Under the pieces are notes generated by a model. That model was given only the letters and a program-made list of their open reading frames with translations, was not told the DNA's origin and ran no database searches. Both the position numbers and the translations under genes were made by a program. From contig JBDNIV010000040.1 in NCBI GenBank assembly GCA_041688145.1, positions 1,742-65,741 of the forward strand: a DNA stretch of 64,000 nt. Reading direction: 5' to 3'. Position 1 is the first letter of the stretch. Each line of letters starts with the position of its first letter. Shown one piece after another: positions 7,115-16,496 of this stretch. Origin of the DNA: Chlamydiia bacterium (GTDB taxonomy: Bacteria > Chlamydiota > Chlamydiia > Chlamydiales > JAAKFQ01).

Positions 7115-8266
7115 TTACAAAGGCTCTGCTCCTCTTTCCAAAATATTGAGATATTTTCTATAAACGTAGACCTTATCTCTTTGCTTGCCACTGATTTCTT
7201 CCAAAATCCCAAGACCTATCATATGATTAAGAATGCCTCGGGCTGTTGGAAGTGAGACTGAAAGCTGCTTAGCGAGAAGCGACGCTGAAACCTGAGGCAA
7301 TCGCTTTAGATATTCTAAAGCTTGCTCGCACGAAAACCGCGCTCTTCCTAAAGTGCTTATTTTCGATTTATCTTCTGAAAAAACGCAATTTATATCTTGA
7401 GCCATTTTGATTGCTTCTTTGCTAGATACAAGAATGCCTTCTAAAAAAAACTCTAACCAAGTTTCCCATGTGCCATGAGTTCTTACTTCTTGAAGCAAAT
7501 TGTAATACGTATTTCGATTCTGCTTAAGATAAAGGCTTAAATATAAAATTGGCTCATCAATAAGCCCCCCCTCTACAAGAAGCAATGTGATTAAAAGACG
7601 TCCTAAGCGACCATTTCCATCCAAAAAAGGGTGTATAGTTTCAAATTGCGCATGAGCTATGCCTGCTTTAATAAGCACAGGCAGTGTTTTATCGTGCAAA
7701 AATTTTTCTAAATTAGAAAGGCAGTCTCCGAGCTTATCTACTGGTGGAGGTACAAATAGCGCATTACCTGGGCGAGTTCCTCCAATCCAATTTTGAGATA
7801 TTCTAAATTCCCCAGGCAGTTGACAAGAGCCCCGAGTGCCTGAAAGCAAAATAGCATGCATTCCTCTAAACAACTTAAGAGACAAAGGCAAATCATCACG
7901 AAGACGCTCTAAACCATAATAGATAGCTTTTACATAGTTAGAGACCTCTTCTACATCATGTAAAGAGACCTCAGGTTTTTCATGATTTTCAAATAGTATA
8001 AGGTCTGAAAGTGAGCTCTGAGTGCCTTCTATCTGGCTAGACAATAGAGCTTCTTTACGCACATGCATATATATGAATAGCGAGTTGTTTGGAATGGACT
8101 TAGACATATTATTAAGCTCAGCTAAGGCGCACGCTGCTTTTTCAAGCGGTCCAGATAATTTACCCAGCTCTATTGGAGGCAAAAGAGGTAATGAAGGAGG
8201 CACATAAGCCTTGAAAGACTCGCCCGCCTCACTTTTAGTACTATATGAACCCAATCGCTTATTCAT
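7115..8266 (-). CDS. Fic family protein (AMPylase-type) with N-terminal inhibitory helix and C-terminal wHTH-like region
   Basis: Fic core motif HPFLDGNGRLGRLL. Upstream inhibitory motif S-x-x-x-E-G (SSQIEGT). Length of 383 aa is typical of Fic_N + Fic + wHTH proteins. Confidence 0.9.
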   Translation of the reverse strand: MNKRLGSYSTKSEAGESFKAYVPPSLPLLPPIELGKLSGPLEKAACALAELNNMSKSIPNNSLFIYMHVRKEALLSSQIEGTQSSLSDLILFENHEKPEVSLHDVEEVSNYVKAIYYGLERLRDDLPLSLKLFRGMHAILLSGTRGSCQLPGEFRISQNWIGGTRPGNALFVPPPVDKLGDCLSNLEKFLHDKTLPVLIKAGIAHAQFETIHPFLDGNGRLGRLLITLLLVEGGLIDEPILYLSLYLKQNRNTYYNLLQEVRTHGTWETWLEFFLEGILVSSKEAIKMAQDINCVFSEDKSKISTLGRARFSCEQALEYLKRLPQVSASLLAKQLSVSLPTARGILNHMIGLGILEEISGKQRDKVYVYRKYLNILERGAEPL

Positions 8267-12094: not shown

Positions 12095-12400
12095 CTACCA
12101 GCTAGCTTTCACAATCCCTGGGATGTGGCCTGAGTTTGCAAGCTCACGGAAGCATAAGCGAGAAAGTTTAAATTTGCGTAAGTAACCTCGGCAACGGCCG
12201 GTGATCTTACAGCGATTTCTAAGGCGTACAGCTGAAGTATTTGGAGACATTTTGTTTAGAGCTGTTCTCGCTACGAACTTTTCTTCTTCTGTCTTAGAAG
12301 CATCTACAATAATTTTTTTTAGTTCTGCGCGTTTTTTCCAGTTTCTTTCGACCTGGAGCTCACGACGCTTTTGCTTCTCAATACTTGCCTTTCTTGCCAT
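12095..12400 (-). CDS. rpsN: 30S ribosomal protein S14 (long, non-zinc form)
   Basis: [13 protein letters not shown]...[41 protein letters not shown]. The start overlaps the rpmJ stop (TAATG). Confidence 0.95.
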
Positions 12401-12540
12401 TATTTGTTCTTCCTTGCAGGACCCTTCTGGCGCTGTTTGCGGTTAGGATCTTTTTTATTAATTACATAGAGACGTCCTCTTCTGCGAACAAGAATGTCGC
12501 CTTTAGAGGGGTCTGCTTTTACTGAAGCTCGGACTTTCAT
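12400..12540 (-). CDS. rpmJ: 50S ribosomal protein L36 (Cys-less form)
   Basis: [40 protein letters not shown]... The true start is the internal ATG at 12540 of the tracked ORF 12400-12600. No Cys or His zinc ligands. Confidence 0.9.
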
Positions 12541-12737
12541 AATGCTTCCTTCATTTACAAATTTGTCCCGTTTATACCCCAAATCTGAATTTGTCCTCAA
12601 GAGAAATCTTCTCTATTGCCTTTCAAAAGGTAAAAAGGGAGAGCAGACGTAAAAAAATCACTAAAAACTTTACTATAGAAAAGCCTTGAAAAACAGGCTC
12701 TATGGAGAGAAAAAGCCTAAACTTGGGTGCCAGACTC

Positions 12738-12801: not shown

Positions 12802-12948
12802 ATGAAAAGAACCTATCAGCCAAGTAAAAGACGCCGTAAAACCACGCATGGATTTCGTGCTCGCATGAAAACTGTTGGAGGCCGCAAGGTCATTAACCGC
12901 AGACGTCGTGCTGGAAGAAAGCGCTTAGCTCCTAGCGCTACCAAGTAA
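12802..12948 (+). CDS. rpmH: 50S ribosomal protein L34
   Basis: Not in the ORF track (48 aa). Manual translation gives [48 protein letters not shown]. Confidence 0.95.
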
Positions 12949-12968: not shown

Positions 12969-13886
12969 ATGCGTTTTAAGCTGCCTAAAGCCCTTCGCGT
13001 ACGTACGCGAAGCCAGTTCGGTTATATCCGAAATAATAGACGCACGCTTTATGGCAAAGTGCTTGTAATAGATTTTGCCCATGCGCGCGGGCCCAACTCT
13101 TCGCCTCTGTGTGCCCCACCTAATAAAGGGATGCTCTCAAAGCTTGACCCCAAACCTAATTCCTTTGCGACAAAAGCTTCAAAATTAGGCTTAAGTGTCT
13201 CCAGAAAAATGGGCAAGGCCTACTTAAGAAACCGCTTCAAAAGACTTGTAAGAGAAGCTTTTCGCCATCTACATCCAAGACTTTTAGAACAATGCCTTAT
13301 CAATATAAGGCCAAAAAATCATTTGAGTTCAATGCCTTCCTTACAAGAGGTTGAAGCCGATTTAAAGCGTCTACTTCCCCTAAAGCAGCCAACTCTCATT
13401 ATCCGCCACAAAAAAGAAAACCGAAAAAAATGCTCCCTTACACCCCTAGAAAAAAGAACTGATTTTACTTTTTTAAGCTACCCTAGCGCTGAAGCTCCTA
13501 TACAAACCCCTGAAGAGTTAAAAAAATCAGGCTACATCCTCTTAGATCCTAAAGCGCCTCCCCTTTCAAAAGAAGACAAACCAAAAGGCCTGATCTTACT
13601 TGATTCTACCTGGCGCTATTTGCCAAAAATGCGCACCTGGCTTGACCCAGAAGGCTCTATCCCTTCAAGGAGCCTTCCTCCAAGCGTAGAGACTGCTTAT
13701 CCCAGAAAACAAGATGAGGAAAGGGGCCTAGCTTCTATTGAAGCTCTTTTTGCTGCTTTTGAGATCCTAGAATGGGATACCAAAGGCCTTTTAGATGAAT
13801 ACCACTGGAAAGAGGCTTTTTTAGAAAAAAATCCCGAACTCCAAAAGAGTGCTCTCCTCTCTCTTTTTAGCGTAAATCTTTCTTAA
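12969..13886 (+). CDS. rnpA: RNase P protein component fused to a C-terminal Tsr3/DTW-superfamily aminocarboxypropyltransferase-like domain
   Basis: aa 1-140 read as RnpA (LRVRTRSQF..., GLSVSRKMGKAYLRNRFKRLVREAFR) with a ~30-aa insert. aa 141-305 match Tsr3 landmarks (RKKCSLTPLEKR; ILLDPKAPPLSKED; LLDSTWRYL; RSLPPSVETAYPR; LASIEALFAAFEIL; YHWKEAFLEKNPEL). It is one uninterrupted frame, directly downstream of rpmH. Confidence 0.85.
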   Translation: MRFKLPKALRVRTRSQFGYIRNNRRTLYGKVLVIDFAHARGPNSSPLCAPPNKGMLSKLDPKPNSFATKASKLGLSVSRKMGKAYLRNRFKRLVREAFRHLHPRLLEQCLINIRPKNHLSSMPSLQEVEADLKRLLPLKQPTLIIRHKKENRKKCSLTPLEKRTDFTFLSYPSAEAPIQTPEELKKSGYILLDPKAPPLSKEDKPKGLILLDSTWRYLPKMRTWLDPEGSIPSRSLPPSVETAYPRKQDEERGLASIEALFAAFEILEWDTKGLLDEYHWKEAFLEKNPELQKSALLSLFSVNLS

Positions 13887-13911
13887 TTCTTCTTATAGGA
13901 AATCTAATTTC

Positions 13912-13942
13912 GTACAAATTGAAGTTGAACTTCAATTTGTAC
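13912..13942. repeat. 31-bp perfect palindrome GTACAAATTGAAGTT-G-AACTTCAATTTGTAC
   Basis: Read directly from the sequence. It lies between the rnpA-fusion stop (13886) and the first MFS gene (14039). No T-tract follows. Confidence 0.8.
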
Positions 13943-14038
13943 AAACAAGGACTCGCATAAGCTCTTTACAAGCTTGTACTGGCTAAAGCTTTATTTTTTT
14001 CTTGCCCAAATTATAAAATTTTCTCTATCTAGTGAAGT

Positions 14039-15265
14039 ATGACAGTAAAATCTAAAAGATCTATTGTTCCGTGCTTTTTCTCTGTAGCTATCGATATTAT
14101 GGGCTACGGGCTTGTGTACCCTCTAATTGCAGCGATGTTTGCAGGAGAACACTCTGCTTTTTTTATAAAGCACCATATCTCTCAAGATATGCACTTTTTT
14201 TACTTAAGTGCTATTTATGTGCTCTACCCTTTGTTTATGTTCTTTGGCTCATCATTCATCAGTGACCTAGCCGACACTATAGGGCGCAAAAAAGTCATGA
14301 TCTTGTCGATGGCACTTTTATGTTTTAGCTTTTGGCTGATGGGAAGCAGTATTGAACAAGAGAGTTTTGCACTTTTTTTATGTGGGCGAGCTTTATCTGG
14401 CTTTGCTGCAGGCAGTCAACCCATTGCACATACAACTGTAGCTGAAATGAGTCCTTTAAGAGCTAAAAGCCATAACCTCGGTATCATTGCTGTATGCCAA
14501 GCACTCGGCCTTATTTTAGGCCCTTTAGTAGCAGGTATTTTCTCCGATACAGCCTTAAACCCAGCCTTCTCATATGAGCTACCTTTCTATATAGCCTCTA
14601 TATTAGCTGCTATTGGCGCTATATGGATGGCCTTTAGTCTAGAAGAAATTCAAGCAAAAGGTATGAAGGACCGCTTTCATATCTTGCGTCCTATCTTTAT
14701 CTTTTTAGATGCCTTTAAGCATAAAACTTTGAGAGTTGTCGCTTTTTCCTTTCTAATGATGCAAATAGCTTTTGGTATATACTTTCAGCTTATTTCTATT
14801 TTCCTCAAAGATGTCTTCCAGTATAAAAGCTGGGAACTTGGTCTTTTTTACGCGTTTTTAGGTGCGGCATTTCCTGTAGGCCTAGGCTGCGCTCGTTATT
14901 TAGCACCTAGGATGTCGATGCAAGCAGGGGTTTTATGGGGACTTTTTGCTCTAACTGCAAGCTTAGTCATCGCTGGCTTTTGCCTAAACCATGAGCTTGT
15001 ATGGTTTGCTGGGTTTTTATTTGCTGTAACTGACATGCTAGCCTATGTAGGCATGGTGCGCGCTTTTTCACATGCCTTAGAACGCAGACGACAAGGATGG
15101 GAAACAGGCACTTTTGGAGCTCTTATTGGCGTAGGTTTTATTGTCTCAGGCTTCAGCCCAAACCTCTTAGACTCTTTTAGCACACACGCTATCTTATTGA
15201 TTGCAGCAGGTATTGCTGCTGTAGCATGGCTCACTATGACCTTGCATTTCAAAGTGTCTAAGTAG
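14039..15265 (+). CDS. MFS transporter (12-TM, drug:H+ antiporter/Tet-like)
   Basis: Multi-TM protein with MFS motif A (DLADTIGRKKVM). Tandem paralog of the next gene. Confidence 0.85.
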   Translation: MTVKSKRSIVPCFFSVAIDIMGYGLVYPLIAAMFAGEHSAFFIKHHISQDMHFFYLSAIYVLYPLFMFFGSSFISDLADTIGRKKVMILSMALLCFSFWLMGSSIEQESFALFLCGRALSGFAAGSQPIAHTTVAEMSPLRAKSHNLGIIAVCQALGLILGPLVAGIFSDTALNPAFSYELPFYIASILAAIGAIWMAFSLEEIQAKGMKDRFHILRPIFIFLDAFKHKTLRVVAFSFLMMQIAFGIYFQLISIFLKDVFQYKSWELGLFYAFLGAAFPVGLGCARYLAPRMSMQAGVLWGLFALTASLVIAGFCLNHELVWFAGFLFAVTDMLAYVGMVRAFSHALERRRQGWETGTFGALIGVGFIVSGFSPNLLDSFSTHAILLIAAGIAAVAWLTMTLHFKVSK

Positions 15266-15266
15266 C

Positions 15267-16496
15267 ATGAATAAACGAATTTTTCCCTGCCTTTTCGCTA
15301 TCTTTGTCGACATTATGGGCTATGGCCTCGTCTACCCGCTAGCCGCTTCAATGCTAGCAGGCTCCCAGGCGCATATTTTGCCAGCAGGTGCCTCTATACA
15401 TACCCAACACTTCTACTTGAGTCTTATGTATCTGCTATATCCTGCAGCAATGTTTTTTGGCGCCTCTTTTATGGGAGATCTATCCGATATGTTTGGCCGC
15501 AGAAAAATACTAACACTTTGCATGGCAGGCATAGCCTTAAGCTTTTGTTTAATGGGATTTGGAGCAATGGCACCTAGCTTAGCGCTTCTTTTATTAGGAC
15601 GCGCTTTATCTGGAGTTTTTGCAGGCAGCCCCCCTATTGCTCAAGCAATTATGGCTGACATTAGCAAAAGTGCCCATGCAAAAGCTAAAAACTTAAGTCT
15701 TTCTGTAGGAGCCCAGTGCCTCGGCACTATTTTCGGACCTTTAATTGCGGGCATTTTTTCTGACTATCAGCTTGTTACTTGGTTTACGTATGCAACTCCC
15801 TTTTTTGTAGCCGCTCTTTTTGCTGCTTTTGCCATGCTATGGGTCTATTTCAAACTAGAGAGCAGCTCTCAAAAAATTCGAGACCCTAAAGAATTTAAAC
15901 CCTTAAGACCTATTCTCGTATTTCTTGAAGCTTTTCAAGACAAGCGCGTCAGACTTTTAGCAATTACAGCTATCTTTGGGCAAATCTCTTTTGGAATTTT
16001 TTTTCAAATGATCTCAGTCGCATTGAAAGGAAGCTTTGACTATAGCGCCTCTCTTATTGGCTATTTTTATGCCTTTATGGGCGTCTTTTTTATAGGCTCA
16101 ATTTGTATGGTCCCCAGAATCCATAAGTGGGCTGGATCACCTCAGCGTCTTGCTATGACAGGTTTTTTATGTAATGCCGTAGCGATCTGCTTTTTTTTCT
16201 TCCAACCCTCTGAATTATGGGTCTGGGTGCTTAGTGCCGTATTGTGTCTTACAAACCCCTTTTACTACACAGGACTTATGATCAGCCTATCGGATGCTGT
16301 AAAAAAAGAGCGCCAAGGGTGGGTTATGGGGATCTATGGAGCAACGATTGCCTTCGGATGGATTATCTCAGGCCTATCTCCTAACCTGCTCAATTGGATA
16401 AGTGTGTGGACAGTGATCTCTTTGAGCACACCTGCATTTCTCGTAACAGCTTTTTTAATGCGCCTTTACATGAGCAAGCACCTTAAAGCCAAATAA
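15267..16496 (+). CDS. MFS transporter (tandem paralog)
   Basis: Same architecture and shared N-terminus (F..DIMGYGLVYPL). Motif A is GDLSDMFGRRKIL. It starts 1 nt after the previous stop. Confidence 0.85.
   Translation: MNKRIFPCLFAIFVDIMGYGLVYPLAASMLAGSQAHILPAGASIHTQHFYLSLMYLLYPAAMFFGASFMGDLSDMFGRRKILTLCMAGIALSFCLMGFGAMAPSLALLLLGRALSGVFAGSPPIAQAIMADISKSAHAKAKNLSLSVGAQCLGTIFGPLIAGIFSDYQLVTWFTYATPFFVAALFAAFAMLWVYFKLESSSQKIRDPKEFKPLRPILVFLEAFQDKRVRLLAITAIFGQISFGIFFQMISVALKGSFDYSASLIGYFYAFMGVFFIGSICMVPRIHKWAGSPQRLAMTGFLCNAVAICFFFFQPSELWVWVLSAVLCLTNPFYYTGLMISLSDAVKKERQGWVMGIYGATIAFGWIISGLSPNLLNWISVWTVISLSTPAFLVTAFLMRLYMSKHLKAK

What the first reader, a model, noticed from the sequence alone, without database searches (positions are those of the whole stretch)
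12969..13886. RNase P protein (RnpA) fused in frame to a Tsr3/DTW-type acp-transferase-like domain
The gene after rpmH is 305 codons instead of the usual ~115-130. Residues 1-140 are a recognisable RnpA with a ~30-aa insert. Residues 141-305 reproduce, in order, the landmarks of the Tsr3 (DUF367) / DTW superfamily: (K/R)KCS..pLE(K/R), LLDP...LS..D, LD(S/C)(T/S)W, R.LP, Y(P/G)R, L(S/N).(I/V)EAL.AA..I.G, and Y/F.W...FLE.N.EL. Tsr3 adds the acp group to small-subunit rRNA in archaea and eukaryotes. The bacterial DTW enzymes (TapT/YfiP) make acp3U47 in tRNA. A covalent fusion to the protein subunit of RNase P would couple tRNA 5' maturation to an acp modification. I do not know of a described example. 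The domain looks closer to the archaeal/eukaryotic Tsr3 flavour (KKCS motif) than to bacterial YfiP.
Basis: partly seen in the sequence, partly recalled or inferred. Interest (0 to 1): 0.78.

Follow-up and report, generated by a model that had tools for sequence, protein, structure and literature searches.

The report
RNase P protein fused to acp-transferase
In a small group of environmental chlamydiae the essential protein subunit of the tRNA-trimming enzyme RNase P is permanently joined to an apparently active Tsr3-like RNA-modifying enzyme, an undescribed architecture that may couple tRNA cutting to chemical modification, although that coupling is not yet shown.

Summary
ORF 12969..13886 (+), directly after rpmH, encodes 305 aa. 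Residues 1-140 are RnpA (Pfam 63.6 bits; fold match to RnpA structures). Residues 141-305 are a Tsr3-like SPOUT domain (Pfam DTW 36.5 bits, above cutoff; best PDB match archaeal Tsr3 5APG; TapT much weaker). The catalytic Asp, the SAM-capping Trp (D212-S-T-W215) and other SAM contacts are present. The fusion is not an artefact: eight in-frame homologs down to about 42% identity share the junction, and both halves have dN/dS of about 0.1-0.25. A divergent protein, P0067, looks like a second, independent fusion. An exhaustive search of 1.84 billion representatives found only about four such clusters. The C-domain matches the orphan bacterial 'pc1599' family (Burroughs & Aravind 2014). In unfused chlamydiae this gene lies 1-3 kb downstream of rpmH-rnpA, so the fusion is a collapse of that block. 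The substrate is unknown. The canonical Tsr3 target is absent, because 16S position 966 is G in 83 of 92 chlamydial-type sequences. tRNA modification on RNase P is the favoured inference (about 0.45). An incidental fusion is a serious rival, because the block is broadly syntenic and the domain also fuses to an unrelated glycosyltransferase. No description was found in the literature.

The parts
12802..12948 (+). rpmH (ribosomal protein L34, 48 aa), the canonical gene upstream of rnpA
   Evidence: ORF. An rpmH homolog sits directly upstream of every fusion gene examined; Pfam Ribosomal_L34 on the ortholog in L040.
12969..13886 (+). Whole fused gene rnpA::tsr3-like (305 codons plus stop)
   Evidence: Eight full-length in-frame homologs. 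The exact protein is present in NCBI, JGI and ENA records, unnamed.
12969..13388 (+). RnpA (RNase P protein) domain, aa 1-140
   Evidence: Pfam PF00825 63.6-66.5 bits. TIGR00188 39.2 bits, cutoff 38.35. Foldseek to RnpA structures 1NZ0, 3Q1Q_A, 1A6F, 6D1R: E about 1e-6, TM (target-normalised) 0.76-0.79. dN/dS 0.10-0.25.
13083..13181 (+). Lineage-specific disordered insert in RnpA (about aa 39-71) between beta2 and beta3
   Evidence: Gap in all but the closest homologs. pLDDT 50-62, below 50 at aa 47-57.
13227..13256 (+). RNR-box region of RnpA (R87-N-R-F-K-R-L-V-R-E96)
   Evidence: Read from the sequence. R87, F90, K91, R92, V94, R95 and E96 are invariant among fusion homologs. N88 and R89 vary in the P0003-P0008 subclades.
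13374..13394 (+). Domain junction (L136-P-L-K-Q-P-T142); essentially no linker
   Evidence: The junction motif LLPLxxPT(L/F)(I/V)(I/V)RH is conserved in the window clade. There is no conserved internal start with Shine-Dalgarno and no conserved slippery site.
13389..13883 (+). Tsr3-like / pc1599-family SPOUT-fold domain (predicted SAM-dependent acp transferase), aa 141-305
   Evidence: Pfam DTW 36.7 bits (cutoff 33.7) and Ribo_biogen_C 28.4 bits. Profile vs PDB sequences: Tsr3 5APG E=1e-8, 5AP8 E=4e-4, nothing else. Foldseek: 5APG_A E=1.7e-7, 25% identity, TM 0.63; TapT 9KZ5 E=0.04, 14% identity. dN/dS about 0.10.
13425..13436 (+). K153-K-C-S156 motif. S156 is equivalent to VdTsr3 T19 / SsTsr3 T17 / yeast S62 (contact to the acp carboxylate); the flanking basic residues lie in the helix alpha1 region assigned to RNA binding in Tsr3.
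   Evidence: Alignment to 5AP8. Residue roles from PMC4872110. K154 and C155 are invariant or nearly so.
13602..13613 (+). D212-S-T-W215 = the D/E-x-S/T-W signature of the TDD superfamily (catalytic base plus the Trp that buries the SAM methyl group)
   Evidence: Aligned to VdTsr3 D70...W73. Roles from PMC4872110 and PMC7026641. D and W are invariant in alignments A1 and A2.
13728..13748 (+). L254-A-S-I-E-A-L260, equivalent to VdTsr3 L110/T112/A115 (SAM adenine and acp contacts)
   Evidence: Alignment. Invariant in A1, invariant or nearly invariant in A2. Roles.
13909..13945 (.). 17-bp perfect inverted repeat 23 nt after the stop codon; possible terminator or regulatory hairpin ending the rpmH-rnpA::tsr3 unit
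   Evidence: and the sequence. Function not tested.

Best explanation
The gene encodes one bifunctional polypeptide.

- N-terminal half: this lineage's ordinary, essential RNase P protein subunit (RnpA). It sits at the canonical rpmH-rnpA locus.
- C-terminal half: an apparently catalytically competent member of the PVC-specific 'pc1599' branch of the Tsr3/DTW (TDD) superfamily. This is a SPOUT-fold enzyme that should bind SAM with the methyl group buried under W215 and use D212 as the base to transfer the 3-amino-3-carboxypropyl (acp) group to N3 of a uridine.
- Origin: the fusion arose when the opposite-strand genes that separate rnpA from the stand-alone pc1599 gene in other Chlamydiota were deleted. 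This apparently happened at least twice.
- Proposed mechanism (inferred, not shown): RnpA docks the acp transferase onto the RNase P ribonucleoprotein, so that pre-tRNAs or freshly cleaved tRNAs are handed to a low-affinity modification core. That core then makes acp3U in tRNA (variable-loop U47 or D-loop U20/20a are the precedents). RnpA plays the part that the basic N-terminal extension plays in TapT.

Shown here: the architecture, conservation, selection, intact active-site residues, the fold, and absence of the canonical rRNA target base. Inferred: acp-transferase activity, tRNA as the substrate, and any kinetic coupling to 5' cleavage.
For: Architecture and reality of the fusion:
- ORF and HMM matches.
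- eight in-frame homologs, 90-42% identical, with a conserved junction.
- independent assemblies from different samples, each with rpmH directly upstream.
- dN/dS 0.25 (N) and 0.10 (C) vs P0001; 0.096 and 0.095 vs P0002.
- no conserved internal start or frameshift site.

Fold and active site:
- AF2 model with pLDDT 86.4 and pTM 0.79.
- Tsr3 5APG is the top hit, RnpA structures come next, TapT is weak.
- a profile of the domain hits only Tsr3 in the PDB sequences.
- T19->S156, L45->L192, P47->P194, D70->D212, W73->W215, A76->L218, L110->L254, T112->S256, A115->A259. Most of these are invariant.

Toward tRNA and coupling:
- P0067 has a different junction, different flanks and a retained 4-aa segment. 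Its C-domain groups with unfused lineages in about 60 of 100 bootstraps, and all fusions are monophyletic in 1 of 100. This points to two independent fusions to the same partner.
- 16S position 966 is G in 83, A in 7 and U in 2 of 92 chlamydial-type sequences, so the canonical Tsr3 site cannot be the target.
- Tsr3 alone binds its RNA weakly.
- TapT needs an N-terminal basic module for tRNA binding, and RnpA occupies that position here.
- A window tRNA-Arg has G46-U47.
- Precedent from established knowledge: the SPOUT enzyme MRPP1/TRMT10C is a subunit of human mitochondrial RNase P. Trm10 and MRPP1 are the next-nearest folds.
Against: - No biochemical data exist for any pc1599-family member, and acp3U has not been reported in Chlamydiota to my knowledge.
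- The domain is closer to the rRNA enzyme Tsr3 than to the tRNA enzymes.
- Outside Chlamydiota, stand-alone members are not near rnpA.
- One member is fused to a glycosyltransferase-9 that is simply its upstream neighbour, so this domain tolerates incidental N-terminal fusions.
- In unfused chlamydiae the genes between rnpA and pc1599 are mostly on the opposite strand.
- The whole region is syntenic: the thioredoxin-like neighbour is present in 22 of 29 loci, rnpA in 19, downstream genes in 14-16. The rnpA linkage is therefore not specifically conserved.
- The fusion is rare, about four 50%-identity clusters among 1.84 billion representatives. If coupling were strongly advantageous it might be commoner.
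- U47 is common in bacterial tRNAs and does not discriminate.
- I could not dock the model onto the holoenzyme-tRNA structure to test the geometry.
- A second rnpA elsewhere in the genome cannot be excluded from a 64-kb window.
Confidence: 0.45

Rival explanations
1. Incidental (neutral) fusion. Deletion of the opposite-strand genes inside a conserved chlamydial syntenic block joined two unrelated reading frames. Both halves stay active but work independently. RnpA serves RNase P as usual. The pc1599 domain modifies its own target, for example a uridine elsewhere in 16S or 23S rRNA or another RNA, exactly as the stand-alone enzyme does in other PVC bacteria. No mechanistic coupling exists.
For: - The region is broadly syntenic and rnpA is not the best-conserved neighbour.
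- Intervening genes are on the opposite strand in most genomes, so the unfused genes are not co-transcribed.
- pc1599 is also fused to an unrelated GT9 that overlaps it by 4 bp in an unfused relative.
- There is no rnpA association outside Chlamydiota.
- The fusion is rare.
- The domain's nearest characterised relative is an rRNA enzyme.
Against: - Fusion to the essential, tightly packed RnpA has been kept across lineages whose synonymous sites are saturated (42-47% aa identity).
- It seems to have arisen twice with the same partner.
- There is almost no linker, and the model has pTM 0.79 for a two-domain protein, which hints at a fixed inter-domain arrangement rather than beads on a string.
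- The canonical rRNA target base is absent.
Confidence: 0.35
2. Canonical Tsr3 function. The C-domain makes acp3U at the helix-31 loop of 16S rRNA (E. coli position 966), as archaeal Tsr3 does.
For: Best sequence and structure matches are archaeal Tsr3. JGI names some stand-alone relatives 'pre-rRNA-processing protein TSR3'.
Against: - Position 966 is G in 83, A in 7 and U in only 2 of 92 16S sequences carrying the pan-Chlamydiales signature. N3-acp transfer needs a uridine or pseudouridine.
- NCBIfam Tsr3 and DUF367 equivalog cutoffs are missed by a wide margin.
- Caveat: the 16S rRNA of the fusion-bearing organisms themselves was not available.
Confidence: 0.05
3. Degenerate or non-catalytic appendage. 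The C-domain has lost enzyme activity and serves only as an extra RNA-binding or stabilising module for RNase P.
For: Inactive enzyme domains are often reused as RNA binders, which is the general argument made for other TDD fusions in PMC4275035. The window clade has a 4-residue deletion before the GLASIEAL helix relative to the stand-alone proteins.
Against: - The catalytic Asp, the capping Trp and the SAM-contact residues are invariant in fused and stand-alone forms.
- dN/dS of the C-domain is about 0.10, at least as constrained as RnpA.
Confidence: 0.07
4. Assembly or sequencing artefact: really two adjacent genes, rnpA and tsr3-like, joined by an indel error.
For: All sequences come from metagenome assemblies. 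Gene callers also mis-extended the start of P0005, P0006 and P0008 into rpmH.
Against: - The identical 305-aa product appears on three separately deposited records.
- Homologs from at least six other samples keep the same frame through a conserved junction at 42-90% identity.
- The junction leaves no room for a stop, an intergenic region and a start.
Confidence: 0.02

Closest known systems
Bacterial RnpA (RNase P protein subunit; Pfam PF00825, TIGR00188; structures 1A6F, 1NZ0, 3Q1Q, 7UO0)
   Same: The N-terminal 140 aa match the family HMM and fold, keep the basic RNR-box helix, and lie directly downstream of rpmH.
   Different: About 2.5 times the usual length. It carries a disordered insert of about 30 aa and a covalently attached 165-aa enzyme domain at its C-terminus. 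N88 and R89 of the RNR box vary in sister subclades.
'pc1599' family of the TDD superfamily (Burroughs & Aravind 2014, PMC4275035): stand-alone proteins of about 160 aa in Planctomycetota, Verrucomicrobiota and Chlamydiota, function untested
   Same: The C-domain is 40-55% identical to stand-alone proteins of about 150-190 aa from Chlamydiota and Planctomycetota MAGs. It shares all of their invariant motifs. It has the same taxonomic range and the same intermediate position between the Pfam Tsr3 and DTW models.
   Different: It is fused to RnpA, and the window clade lacks 4 residues before the GLASIEAL helix. Assignment to 'pc1599' is by description. I did not align the Protochlamydia pc1599 sequence itself.
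Archaeal/eukaryotic Tsr3 (SSU rRNA acp transferase; PDB 5APG, 5AP8; PMC4872110)
   Same: Best structural and profile match. Minimal core with no N-terminal extension. D-x-S/T-W motif, K-K-C-(S/T) helix alpha1, the L-D-P strand and the LxS/TxEA helix that contact SAM.
   Different: Only about 25% identity. It misses the curated Tsr3 and DUF367 equivalog cutoffs. The target base of Tsr3 (U966 equivalent) is G in chlamydial-type 16S rRNA. The host is bacterial.
E. coli TapT/YfiP (tRNA acp3U47 synthase; PDB 9KYT, 9KZ5; PMC7026641, PMC12630136) and eukaryotic DTWD1/DTWD2
   Same: Same superfamily, same catalytic motif and the same predicted chemistry. Both have an N-terminal RNA-binding module ahead of the catalytic core: a basic zinc-finger extension in TapT, RnpA here.
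   Different: Weak structural match (E=0.04, 14% identity). There is no CxxCx6CxC zinc finger. The Tsr3-type basic residues are retained instead.
Human mitochondrial RNase P (MRPP1/TRMT10C-MRPP2-MRPP3; PDB 7ONU)
   Same: A SPOUT-fold tRNA-modifying enzyme is physically part of the RNase P machinery. Trm10 and MRPP1 are the next-nearest folds after Tsr3.
   Different: The mitochondrial enzyme is protein-only, the association is non-covalent, the enzyme is an m1R9 methyltransferase, and it is evolutionarily unrelated to RnpA-based RNase P. The analogy is functional only and is unproven here.

Membership tests
RnpA (bacterial RNase P protein) | Match to the family HMM above the curated threshold | tested here: met
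   PF00825 63.6 bits vs cutoff 22.3. TIGR00188 39.2 bits for aa 1-140 vs cutoff 38.35; 37.3 for the full-length protein.
RnpA (bacterial RNase P protein) | alpha/beta RnpA fold | tested here: met
   Foldseek hits to 1NZ0, 3Q1Q_A, 1A6F, 6D1R and 7UO0_A: E 1e-6 to 8e-4, target-normalised TM 0.72-0.79. pLDDT of about 90 outside the insert.
RnpA (bacterial RNase P protein) | Conserved basic RNR-box helix | tested here: met
   R87-N-R-F-K-R-L-V-R-E96 in the window. R87, K91, R92 and R95 are invariant among fusions; N88 and R89 are not.
RnpA (bacterial RNase P protein) | Position immediately downstream of rpmH | tested here: met
RnpA (bacterial RNase P protein) | Assembles with RNase P RNA and supports pre-tRNA cleavage; is the only rnpA in the genome | not testable with these tools
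   No rnpB in the window. The whole genome was not available.
TDD superfamily (Tsr3/DTWD1/DTWD2/TapT acp transferases) | D/E-x-S/T-W motif | tested here: met
   D212-S-T-W215, aligned to VdTsr3 D70...W73. Invariant D and W. Motif definition.
TDD superfamily (Tsr3/DTWD1/DTWD2/TapT acp transferases) | Pfam DTW (PF03942) match above the gathering score | tested here: met
   36.5-36.7 bits vs 33.7. 19 of 34 stand-alone relatives also match.
TDD superfamily (Tsr3/DTWD1/DTWD2/TapT acp transferases) | SPOUT-like fold with a deep trefoil knot | tested here: inconclusive
   The top fold matches are Tsr3, then Trm10 and TapT.
TDD superfamily (Tsr3/DTWD1/DTWD2/TapT acp transferases) | SAM binding and acp transfer to N3 of U or pseudouridine | not testable with these tools
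   Only residue conservation could be assessed (S156, L192, P194, D212, W215, L218, L254, S256, A259).
Tsr3 proper (SSU rRNA acp transferase) | Match to the Tsr3-specific models above threshold | tested here: not met
   PF04034 26.7-28.4 bits vs 29.9. NF002621 (DUF367) about 37-39 bits vs 152. NF053630 (TSR3) 17-19 bits vs 300.
Tsr3 proper (SSU rRNA acp transferase) | Target uridine at the SSU helix-31 loop (E. coli position 966) | tested here: not met
   G in 83, A in 7 and U in 2 of 92 chlamydial-type 16S sequences. The fusion-bearing organism's own 16S was not available.
TapT/YfiP (tRNA acp3U47 synthase) | N-terminal basic extension of about 70 aa with a CxxCx6CxC zinc finger | tested here: not met
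   The sequence N-terminal to the core is RnpA and has no such Cys motif. Feature definition.
TapT/YfiP (tRNA acp3U47 synthase) | Close structural or sequence similarity to TapT | tested here: not met
   Foldseek to 9KZ5_A E=0.04, 14% identity, TM 0.51. No TapT hit in the PDB profile search at E<=1.
pc1599 family (PVC-specific bacterial TDD family) | Bacterial, PVC-restricted, stand-alone core of about 160 aa that clusters apart from Tsr3 and DTWD1/2 | tested here: met
   All 29 GTDB-representative loci are Chlamydiota or 'Verrucomicrobia' MAGs, and named relatives are Planctomycetota. Pfam hits are split between the DTW and Tsr3 models. Family description.
pc1599 family (PVC-specific bacterial TDD family) | Direct homology to the eponymous Protochlamydia amoebophila pc1599 protein | not tested
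   The pc1599 sequence was not retrieved. The assignment rests on the published description.

The most novel reading that the evidence does not exclude
In these chlamydiae the RNA-based RNase P holoenzyme is a combined processing and modification machine. Its only protein subunit carries an active acp transferase that installs acp3U on tRNAs while they are bound to RNase P or as they are released. This would be a bacterial, covalent counterpart of the methyltransferase-containing mitochondrial RNase P. It would also reveal the function (tRNA acp3U synthase) of the whole orphan pc1599 family in PVC bacteria.
Probability: 0.3. Interest if true: 0.8.

Novelty: new variant of a known kind. Interest (0 to 1): 0.6.

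Why it matters
Bacterial RNase P is the textbook minimal ribonucleoprotein: one catalytic RNA plus one small basic protein of about 120 aa. A lineage in which that essential protein permanently carries a second enzyme shows that the holoenzyme can accommodate a large appendage. The appendage is conserved, under purifying selection, and was apparently acquired twice.

This offers a natural experiment on whether tRNA end-processing and base modification can be physically coupled in bacteria, as they are in human mitochondria.

It also gives the first functional lead for the uncharacterised pc1599 branch of the Tsr3/DTW superfamily. The lead is directly testable: look for acp3U in chlamydial tRNA, and test complementation of E. 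coli ΔtapT.

If the fusion is merely incidental, it is still a useful caution against reading 'Rosetta-stone' fusions as functional links in genomes with rigid synteny.

Tried and rejected
- **Separate products from one ORF.** I looked for a conserved in-frame internal start with a Shine-Dalgarno, or a conserved slippery heptamer, at the junction. A-rich Lys codons are present (for example CGA AAA AAA in the window), but neither the slippery context nor an internal Met is conserved across homologs. Rejected as a conserved feature.
- **N-terminal extension of P0005, P0006 and P0008.** This stretch of about 55 aa looked like a third domain. It is a mis-called start that overlaps rpmH in another frame.
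- **Canonical 16S h31 target.** Rejected on the base tally at position 966.
- **Naming the organism.** Exact-sequence look-ups of eight window proteins returned no source names. The window's genome is not among the GTDB species representatives scanned. Chlamydiota affiliation is inferred from nearest homologs and shared synteny.
- **Neighbourhood as functional evidence.** Clustering showed that the linkage to rnpA is part of a wider syntenic block, so I down-weighted it.
- **Single origin of the window-clade fusion.** The 147-column NJ tree does not resolve it (monophyly in 16 of 50 bootstraps). Shared flanking synteny argues for one organismal clade. An earlier tree script crashed and another timed out.
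- **Literature.** Searches for an RnpA fusion or a long chlamydial RnpA found nothing relevant. This covers only the open-access library held here.
- **Other long relatives.** P0159, P0147, P0094 and P0039 carry no recognisable second domain. The N-terminus of P0039 is a repetitive, probably spurious, translation.
Full report
**1. The observation**

The window contains one uninterrupted ORF at 12969..13886 (+) of 305 codons. It starts 20 nt after a 48-codon rpmH at 12802..12948. This is the canonical position of rnpA, but the gene is about 2.5 times the normal length.
- Pfam assigns aa 5-136 to Ribonuclease_P (63.6 bits, cutoff 22.3).
- Pfam assigns aa 138-279 to DTW (36.5 bits, cutoff 33.7).
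- A just-sub-threshold match to Ribo_biogen_C, the Tsr3 model, covers aa 191-291 (26.7 bits, cutoff 29.9).
- NCBIfam agrees: rnpA TIGR00188 scores 39.2 bits for the N half, and DUF367 scores about 37-39 bits at E about 1e-9, far below that model's equivalog cutoff.

**2. The fusion is real, conserved and selected**

A search of 5.8 billion proteins found seven full-length homologs (P0001-P0006, P0008; 90-42% identity) plus a truncated one (P0007). All carry both domains.
- In the alignment the junction (LLPLxxPT-L/F-I/V-I/V-RH-R/K-R/K-EN-K/R-KKC) is conserved and uninterrupted.
- The window's exact protein occurs on three separately deposited records.
- Homologs come from at least six other samples. 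Each has rpmH directly upstream and shared downstream synteny: two MFS transporters, a Trp/Tyr permease and GlmS.
- The apparent N-terminal extension of about 55 aa in P0005, P0006 and P0008 is a mis-called start overlapping rpmH.
- Nei-Gojobori dN/dS is 0.25 (RnpA half) and 0.10 (Tsr3-like half) against P0001. Against P0002 the values are 0.096 and 0.095. Neither half is decaying.
- There is no conserved internal start with a Shine-Dalgarno and no conserved slippery site at the junction, so a single polypeptide is the simplest reading.

**3. What the two halves are**

An AlphaFold2 model built on a 43-sequence alignment is confident (mean pLDDT 86.4, pTM 0.79). Only the lineage-specific insert at about aa 39-71 is disordered. 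Foldseek against the PDB gave these results:
- Best hit: archaeal Tsr3 5APG_A (E=1.7e-7, 25% identity, TM 0.63) for the C half.
- A block of bacterial RnpA structures for the N half, including the holoenzyme-tRNA complex 3Q1Q (E about 1e-6, TM 0.76-0.79).
- SsTsr3 5AP8 at E=3.7e-5.
- Trm10 (about 0.02), E. coli TapT 9KZ5 (0.04, 14% identity) and MRPP1 of mitochondrial RNase P (about 0.09) are much weaker.

A profile of the C-domain family hits only the two Tsr3 entries among all PDB sequences (1e-8 and 4e-4).

I took the residue roles from the Tsr3 and TapT papers and mapped them with the alignments:
- Catalytic base D70 -> D212.
- SAM-methyl-capping W73 -> W215.
- T19 -> S156.
- L45 and P47 -> L192 and P194.
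- A76 -> L218.
- L110, T112 and A115 -> L254, S256 and A259.

Most are invariant in both fused and stand-alone relatives. The domain therefore looks like a competent SAM-dependent acp transferase. It lacks TapT's N-terminal zinc-finger extension.

**4. Family placement**

The C half is 40-55% identical to a large set of stand-alone proteins of about 150-190 aa.
- All 29 hits among GTDB species representatives are Chlamydiota MAGs, or MAGs labelled 'Verrucomicrobia'.
- Named relatives include Planctomycetota.
- These proteins split their Pfam hits between the Tsr3 model (22 of 34) and DTW (19 of 34).

This matches the 'pc1599' family that Burroughs & Aravind (2014) delineated as a bacterial, PVC-restricted branch of the TDD superfamily. 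That paper is the only one in the library that mentions the family. It reports no RNase P fusion or rnpA neighbourhood. I did not align the eponymous pc1599 protein itself.

**5. How the fusion arose and how common it is**

In 18 of the 25 unfused chlamydial loci with full upstream flank, rpmH and rnpA lie 1-3 kb upstream of the tsr3-like gene on the same strand.
- The space between is usually filled by two opposite-strand secreted thioredoxin-like genes.
- In three loci labelled Simkaniaceae it is filled by a UvrD-like helicase.
- In some loci it holds other genes. In L017 the gap is only 520 bp.

The window clade has lost the intervening genes and joined the frames.

An exhaustive HMMER search of 1.84 billion cluster representatives with the fusion profile found only P0003, P0005 and P0067, plus truncated P0007, covering both domains. 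Everything else is a stand-alone C-domain or a stand-alone RnpA.

P0067 (263 aa; Ribonuclease_P 85 bits plus DTW) stands apart:
- It has a different junction sequence.
- It keeps a 4-residue segment that the window clade lacks.
- It lies in a different context (YbeY and CorC upstream, a Na/Ala symporter downstream), though still directly after rpmH.
- Its C-domain groups with unfused lineages in about 60 of 100 bootstraps, and all fusions together are monophyletic in 1 of 100.

This indicates a second, independent fusion to the same partner. The trees are short-alignment NJ trees and should be treated as indicative only.

**6. What does it act on?**

The canonical Tsr3 target is the uridine in the helix-31 loop of SSU rRNA (E. 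coli position 966). I collected 120 metagenomic 16S loci carrying the pan-Chlamydiales probe signature. Of these, 92 reach helix 31, and position 966 is G in 83, A in 7 and U in 2. The canonical site is therefore generally unavailable, and a straightforward 'bacterial Tsr3' role is unlikely. The carriers' own 16S was not available.

Arguments for tRNA, and so for functional coupling to RNase P:
- Two independent fusions to RnpA.
- Long-term retention on an essential subunit, with virtually no linker and a confident two-domain model.
- Tsr3's weak intrinsic RNA affinity.
- TapT's dependence on an N-terminal basic module for tRNA binding, with about a 50-fold loss when mutated. RnpA occupies that position here.
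- The presence of G46-U47 in a window tRNA, which is non-discriminating.
- The precedent of a SPOUT tRNA methyltransferase as a subunit of human mitochondrial RNase P (established knowledge; 7ONU appears).

Arguments against:
- Outside Chlamydiota, stand-alone members are next to unrelated genes (IspG, Ala racemase, MFS).
- One planctomycete protein (P0015) is a fusion of the domain to a glycosyltransferase-9, which in an unfused relative merely overlaps it by 4 bp. The domain clearly tolerates incidental N-terminal fusions.
- In the unfused chlamydiae the whole region is syntenic: the thioredoxin-like neighbour is present in 22 of 29 loci, rnpA and rpmH in 19, S14 in 14, and downstream genes in 14-16. 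The rnpA linkage is not specifically conserved, and the genes are not co-transcribed.
- No member of the family has been studied experimentally.

**7. Verdict**

The architecture is established with high confidence (about 0.95): a real, conserved, selected RnpA::Tsr3-like (pc1599-family) fusion with an intact acp-transferase active site.

The mechanism is inferred. I favour an RNase P-tethered tRNA acp3U synthase (about 0.45). Second is an incidental fusion of two independently acting enzymes (about 0.35). Minor possibilities are a non-catalytic appendage, a canonical 16S role, or an artefact.

I found no description of such a fusion in the literature available here. I rate it a new variant of known kinds. 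It is of moderate-to-high interest because it makes the function of an orphan enzyme family, and the idea of processing-modification coupling in bacterial RNase P, directly testable.

Noticed in passing
window 13909-13945: A 17-bp perfect inverted repeat (TTCGTACAAATTGAAGTT / AACTTCAATTTGTACAAA) lies 23 nt after the stop of the fused gene. It is AT-rich and has no clear T-tract on the + strand. It could be a terminator or a protein-binding palindrome.
   Followed up: partly
window 12095-12600 (-): Ribosomal S14 (100 aa, long form) and L36 are encoded divergently from rpmH. The L36 sequence ([30 protein letters not shown]...) lacks the usual Cys zinc-binding residues, so it looks like the zinc-independent paralog type. 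The same S14/L36-rpmH arrangement recurs in related chlamydial loci.
   Followed up: partly
P0015 (522 aa) and locus L036 4883-6507: In a Planctomycetota MAG the same Tsr3-like domain is fused to a glycosyltransferase family 9 (heptosyltransferase-like) protein. In an unfused relative the two genes overlap by 4 bp. This is a second, functionally unrelated fusion partner for the domain.
   Followed up: partly
L041 6301-7092 (P0067): A more divergent RnpA::Tsr3-like fusion (263 aa) with a different junction and genomic context (YbeY and CorC upstream, a Na/Ala symporter downstream). It is probably an independent fusion event in another chlamydial lineage.
   Followed up: yes
loci L002, L005, L015, L016, L018, L020, L023, L028 (between rnpA and the tsr3-like gene): Two tandem opposite-strand genes encode signal-peptide proteins with a thioredoxin-like 'KPLLLFFTGSDWSG' motif. 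They are the most conserved neighbour of the stand-alone tsr3-like gene in Chlamydiota (22 of 29 loci) and are exactly what is missing in the fusion clade. Their function was not examined.
   Followed up: no
loci L042-L161 (16S rRNA, helix 31): Among 92 16S sequences carrying the pan-Chlamydiales probe motif, a minority have A (7) or U (2) instead of G at E. coli position 966, with unusual h31 loops (for example ...cgacAataag...). Whether those lineages carry a Tsr3-like enzyme acting there is unknown.
   Followed up: no
window 7115-8266 (-): A Fic/DOC-family protein (Fic_N plus Fic) is inserted between UvrC and Asp23 in the window and in the P0001 contig. It is absent from the otherwise syntenic contigs of P0002, P0004 and P0005.
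   Followed up: partly
window 14039-16496 (+): Two tandem paralogous MFS transporters (408 and 409 aa, start and stop almost abutting) lie immediately downstream of the fused gene. They are conserved in all fusion-clade contigs.
   Followed up: partly
window 21718-22581 (+): A PolyA_pol-family ORF (CCA-adding enzyme or poly(A) polymerase) matches only the end of the head domain (profile positions 92-125) at its N-terminus. The true start is probably upstream of the GTG chosen by the ORF finder, or the gene is truncated. This is another tRNA-maturation gene 8 kb from rnpA.
   Followed up: no
P0039 (310 aa), N-terminal 140 aa: A stand-alone-type Tsr3-like protein has an N-terminal region made of four copies of 'AVLGAFGAARAGSSRPAGILTGRAV'. 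This is probably a spurious translation of a GC-rich tandem DNA repeat upstream of the real start.
   Followed up: no
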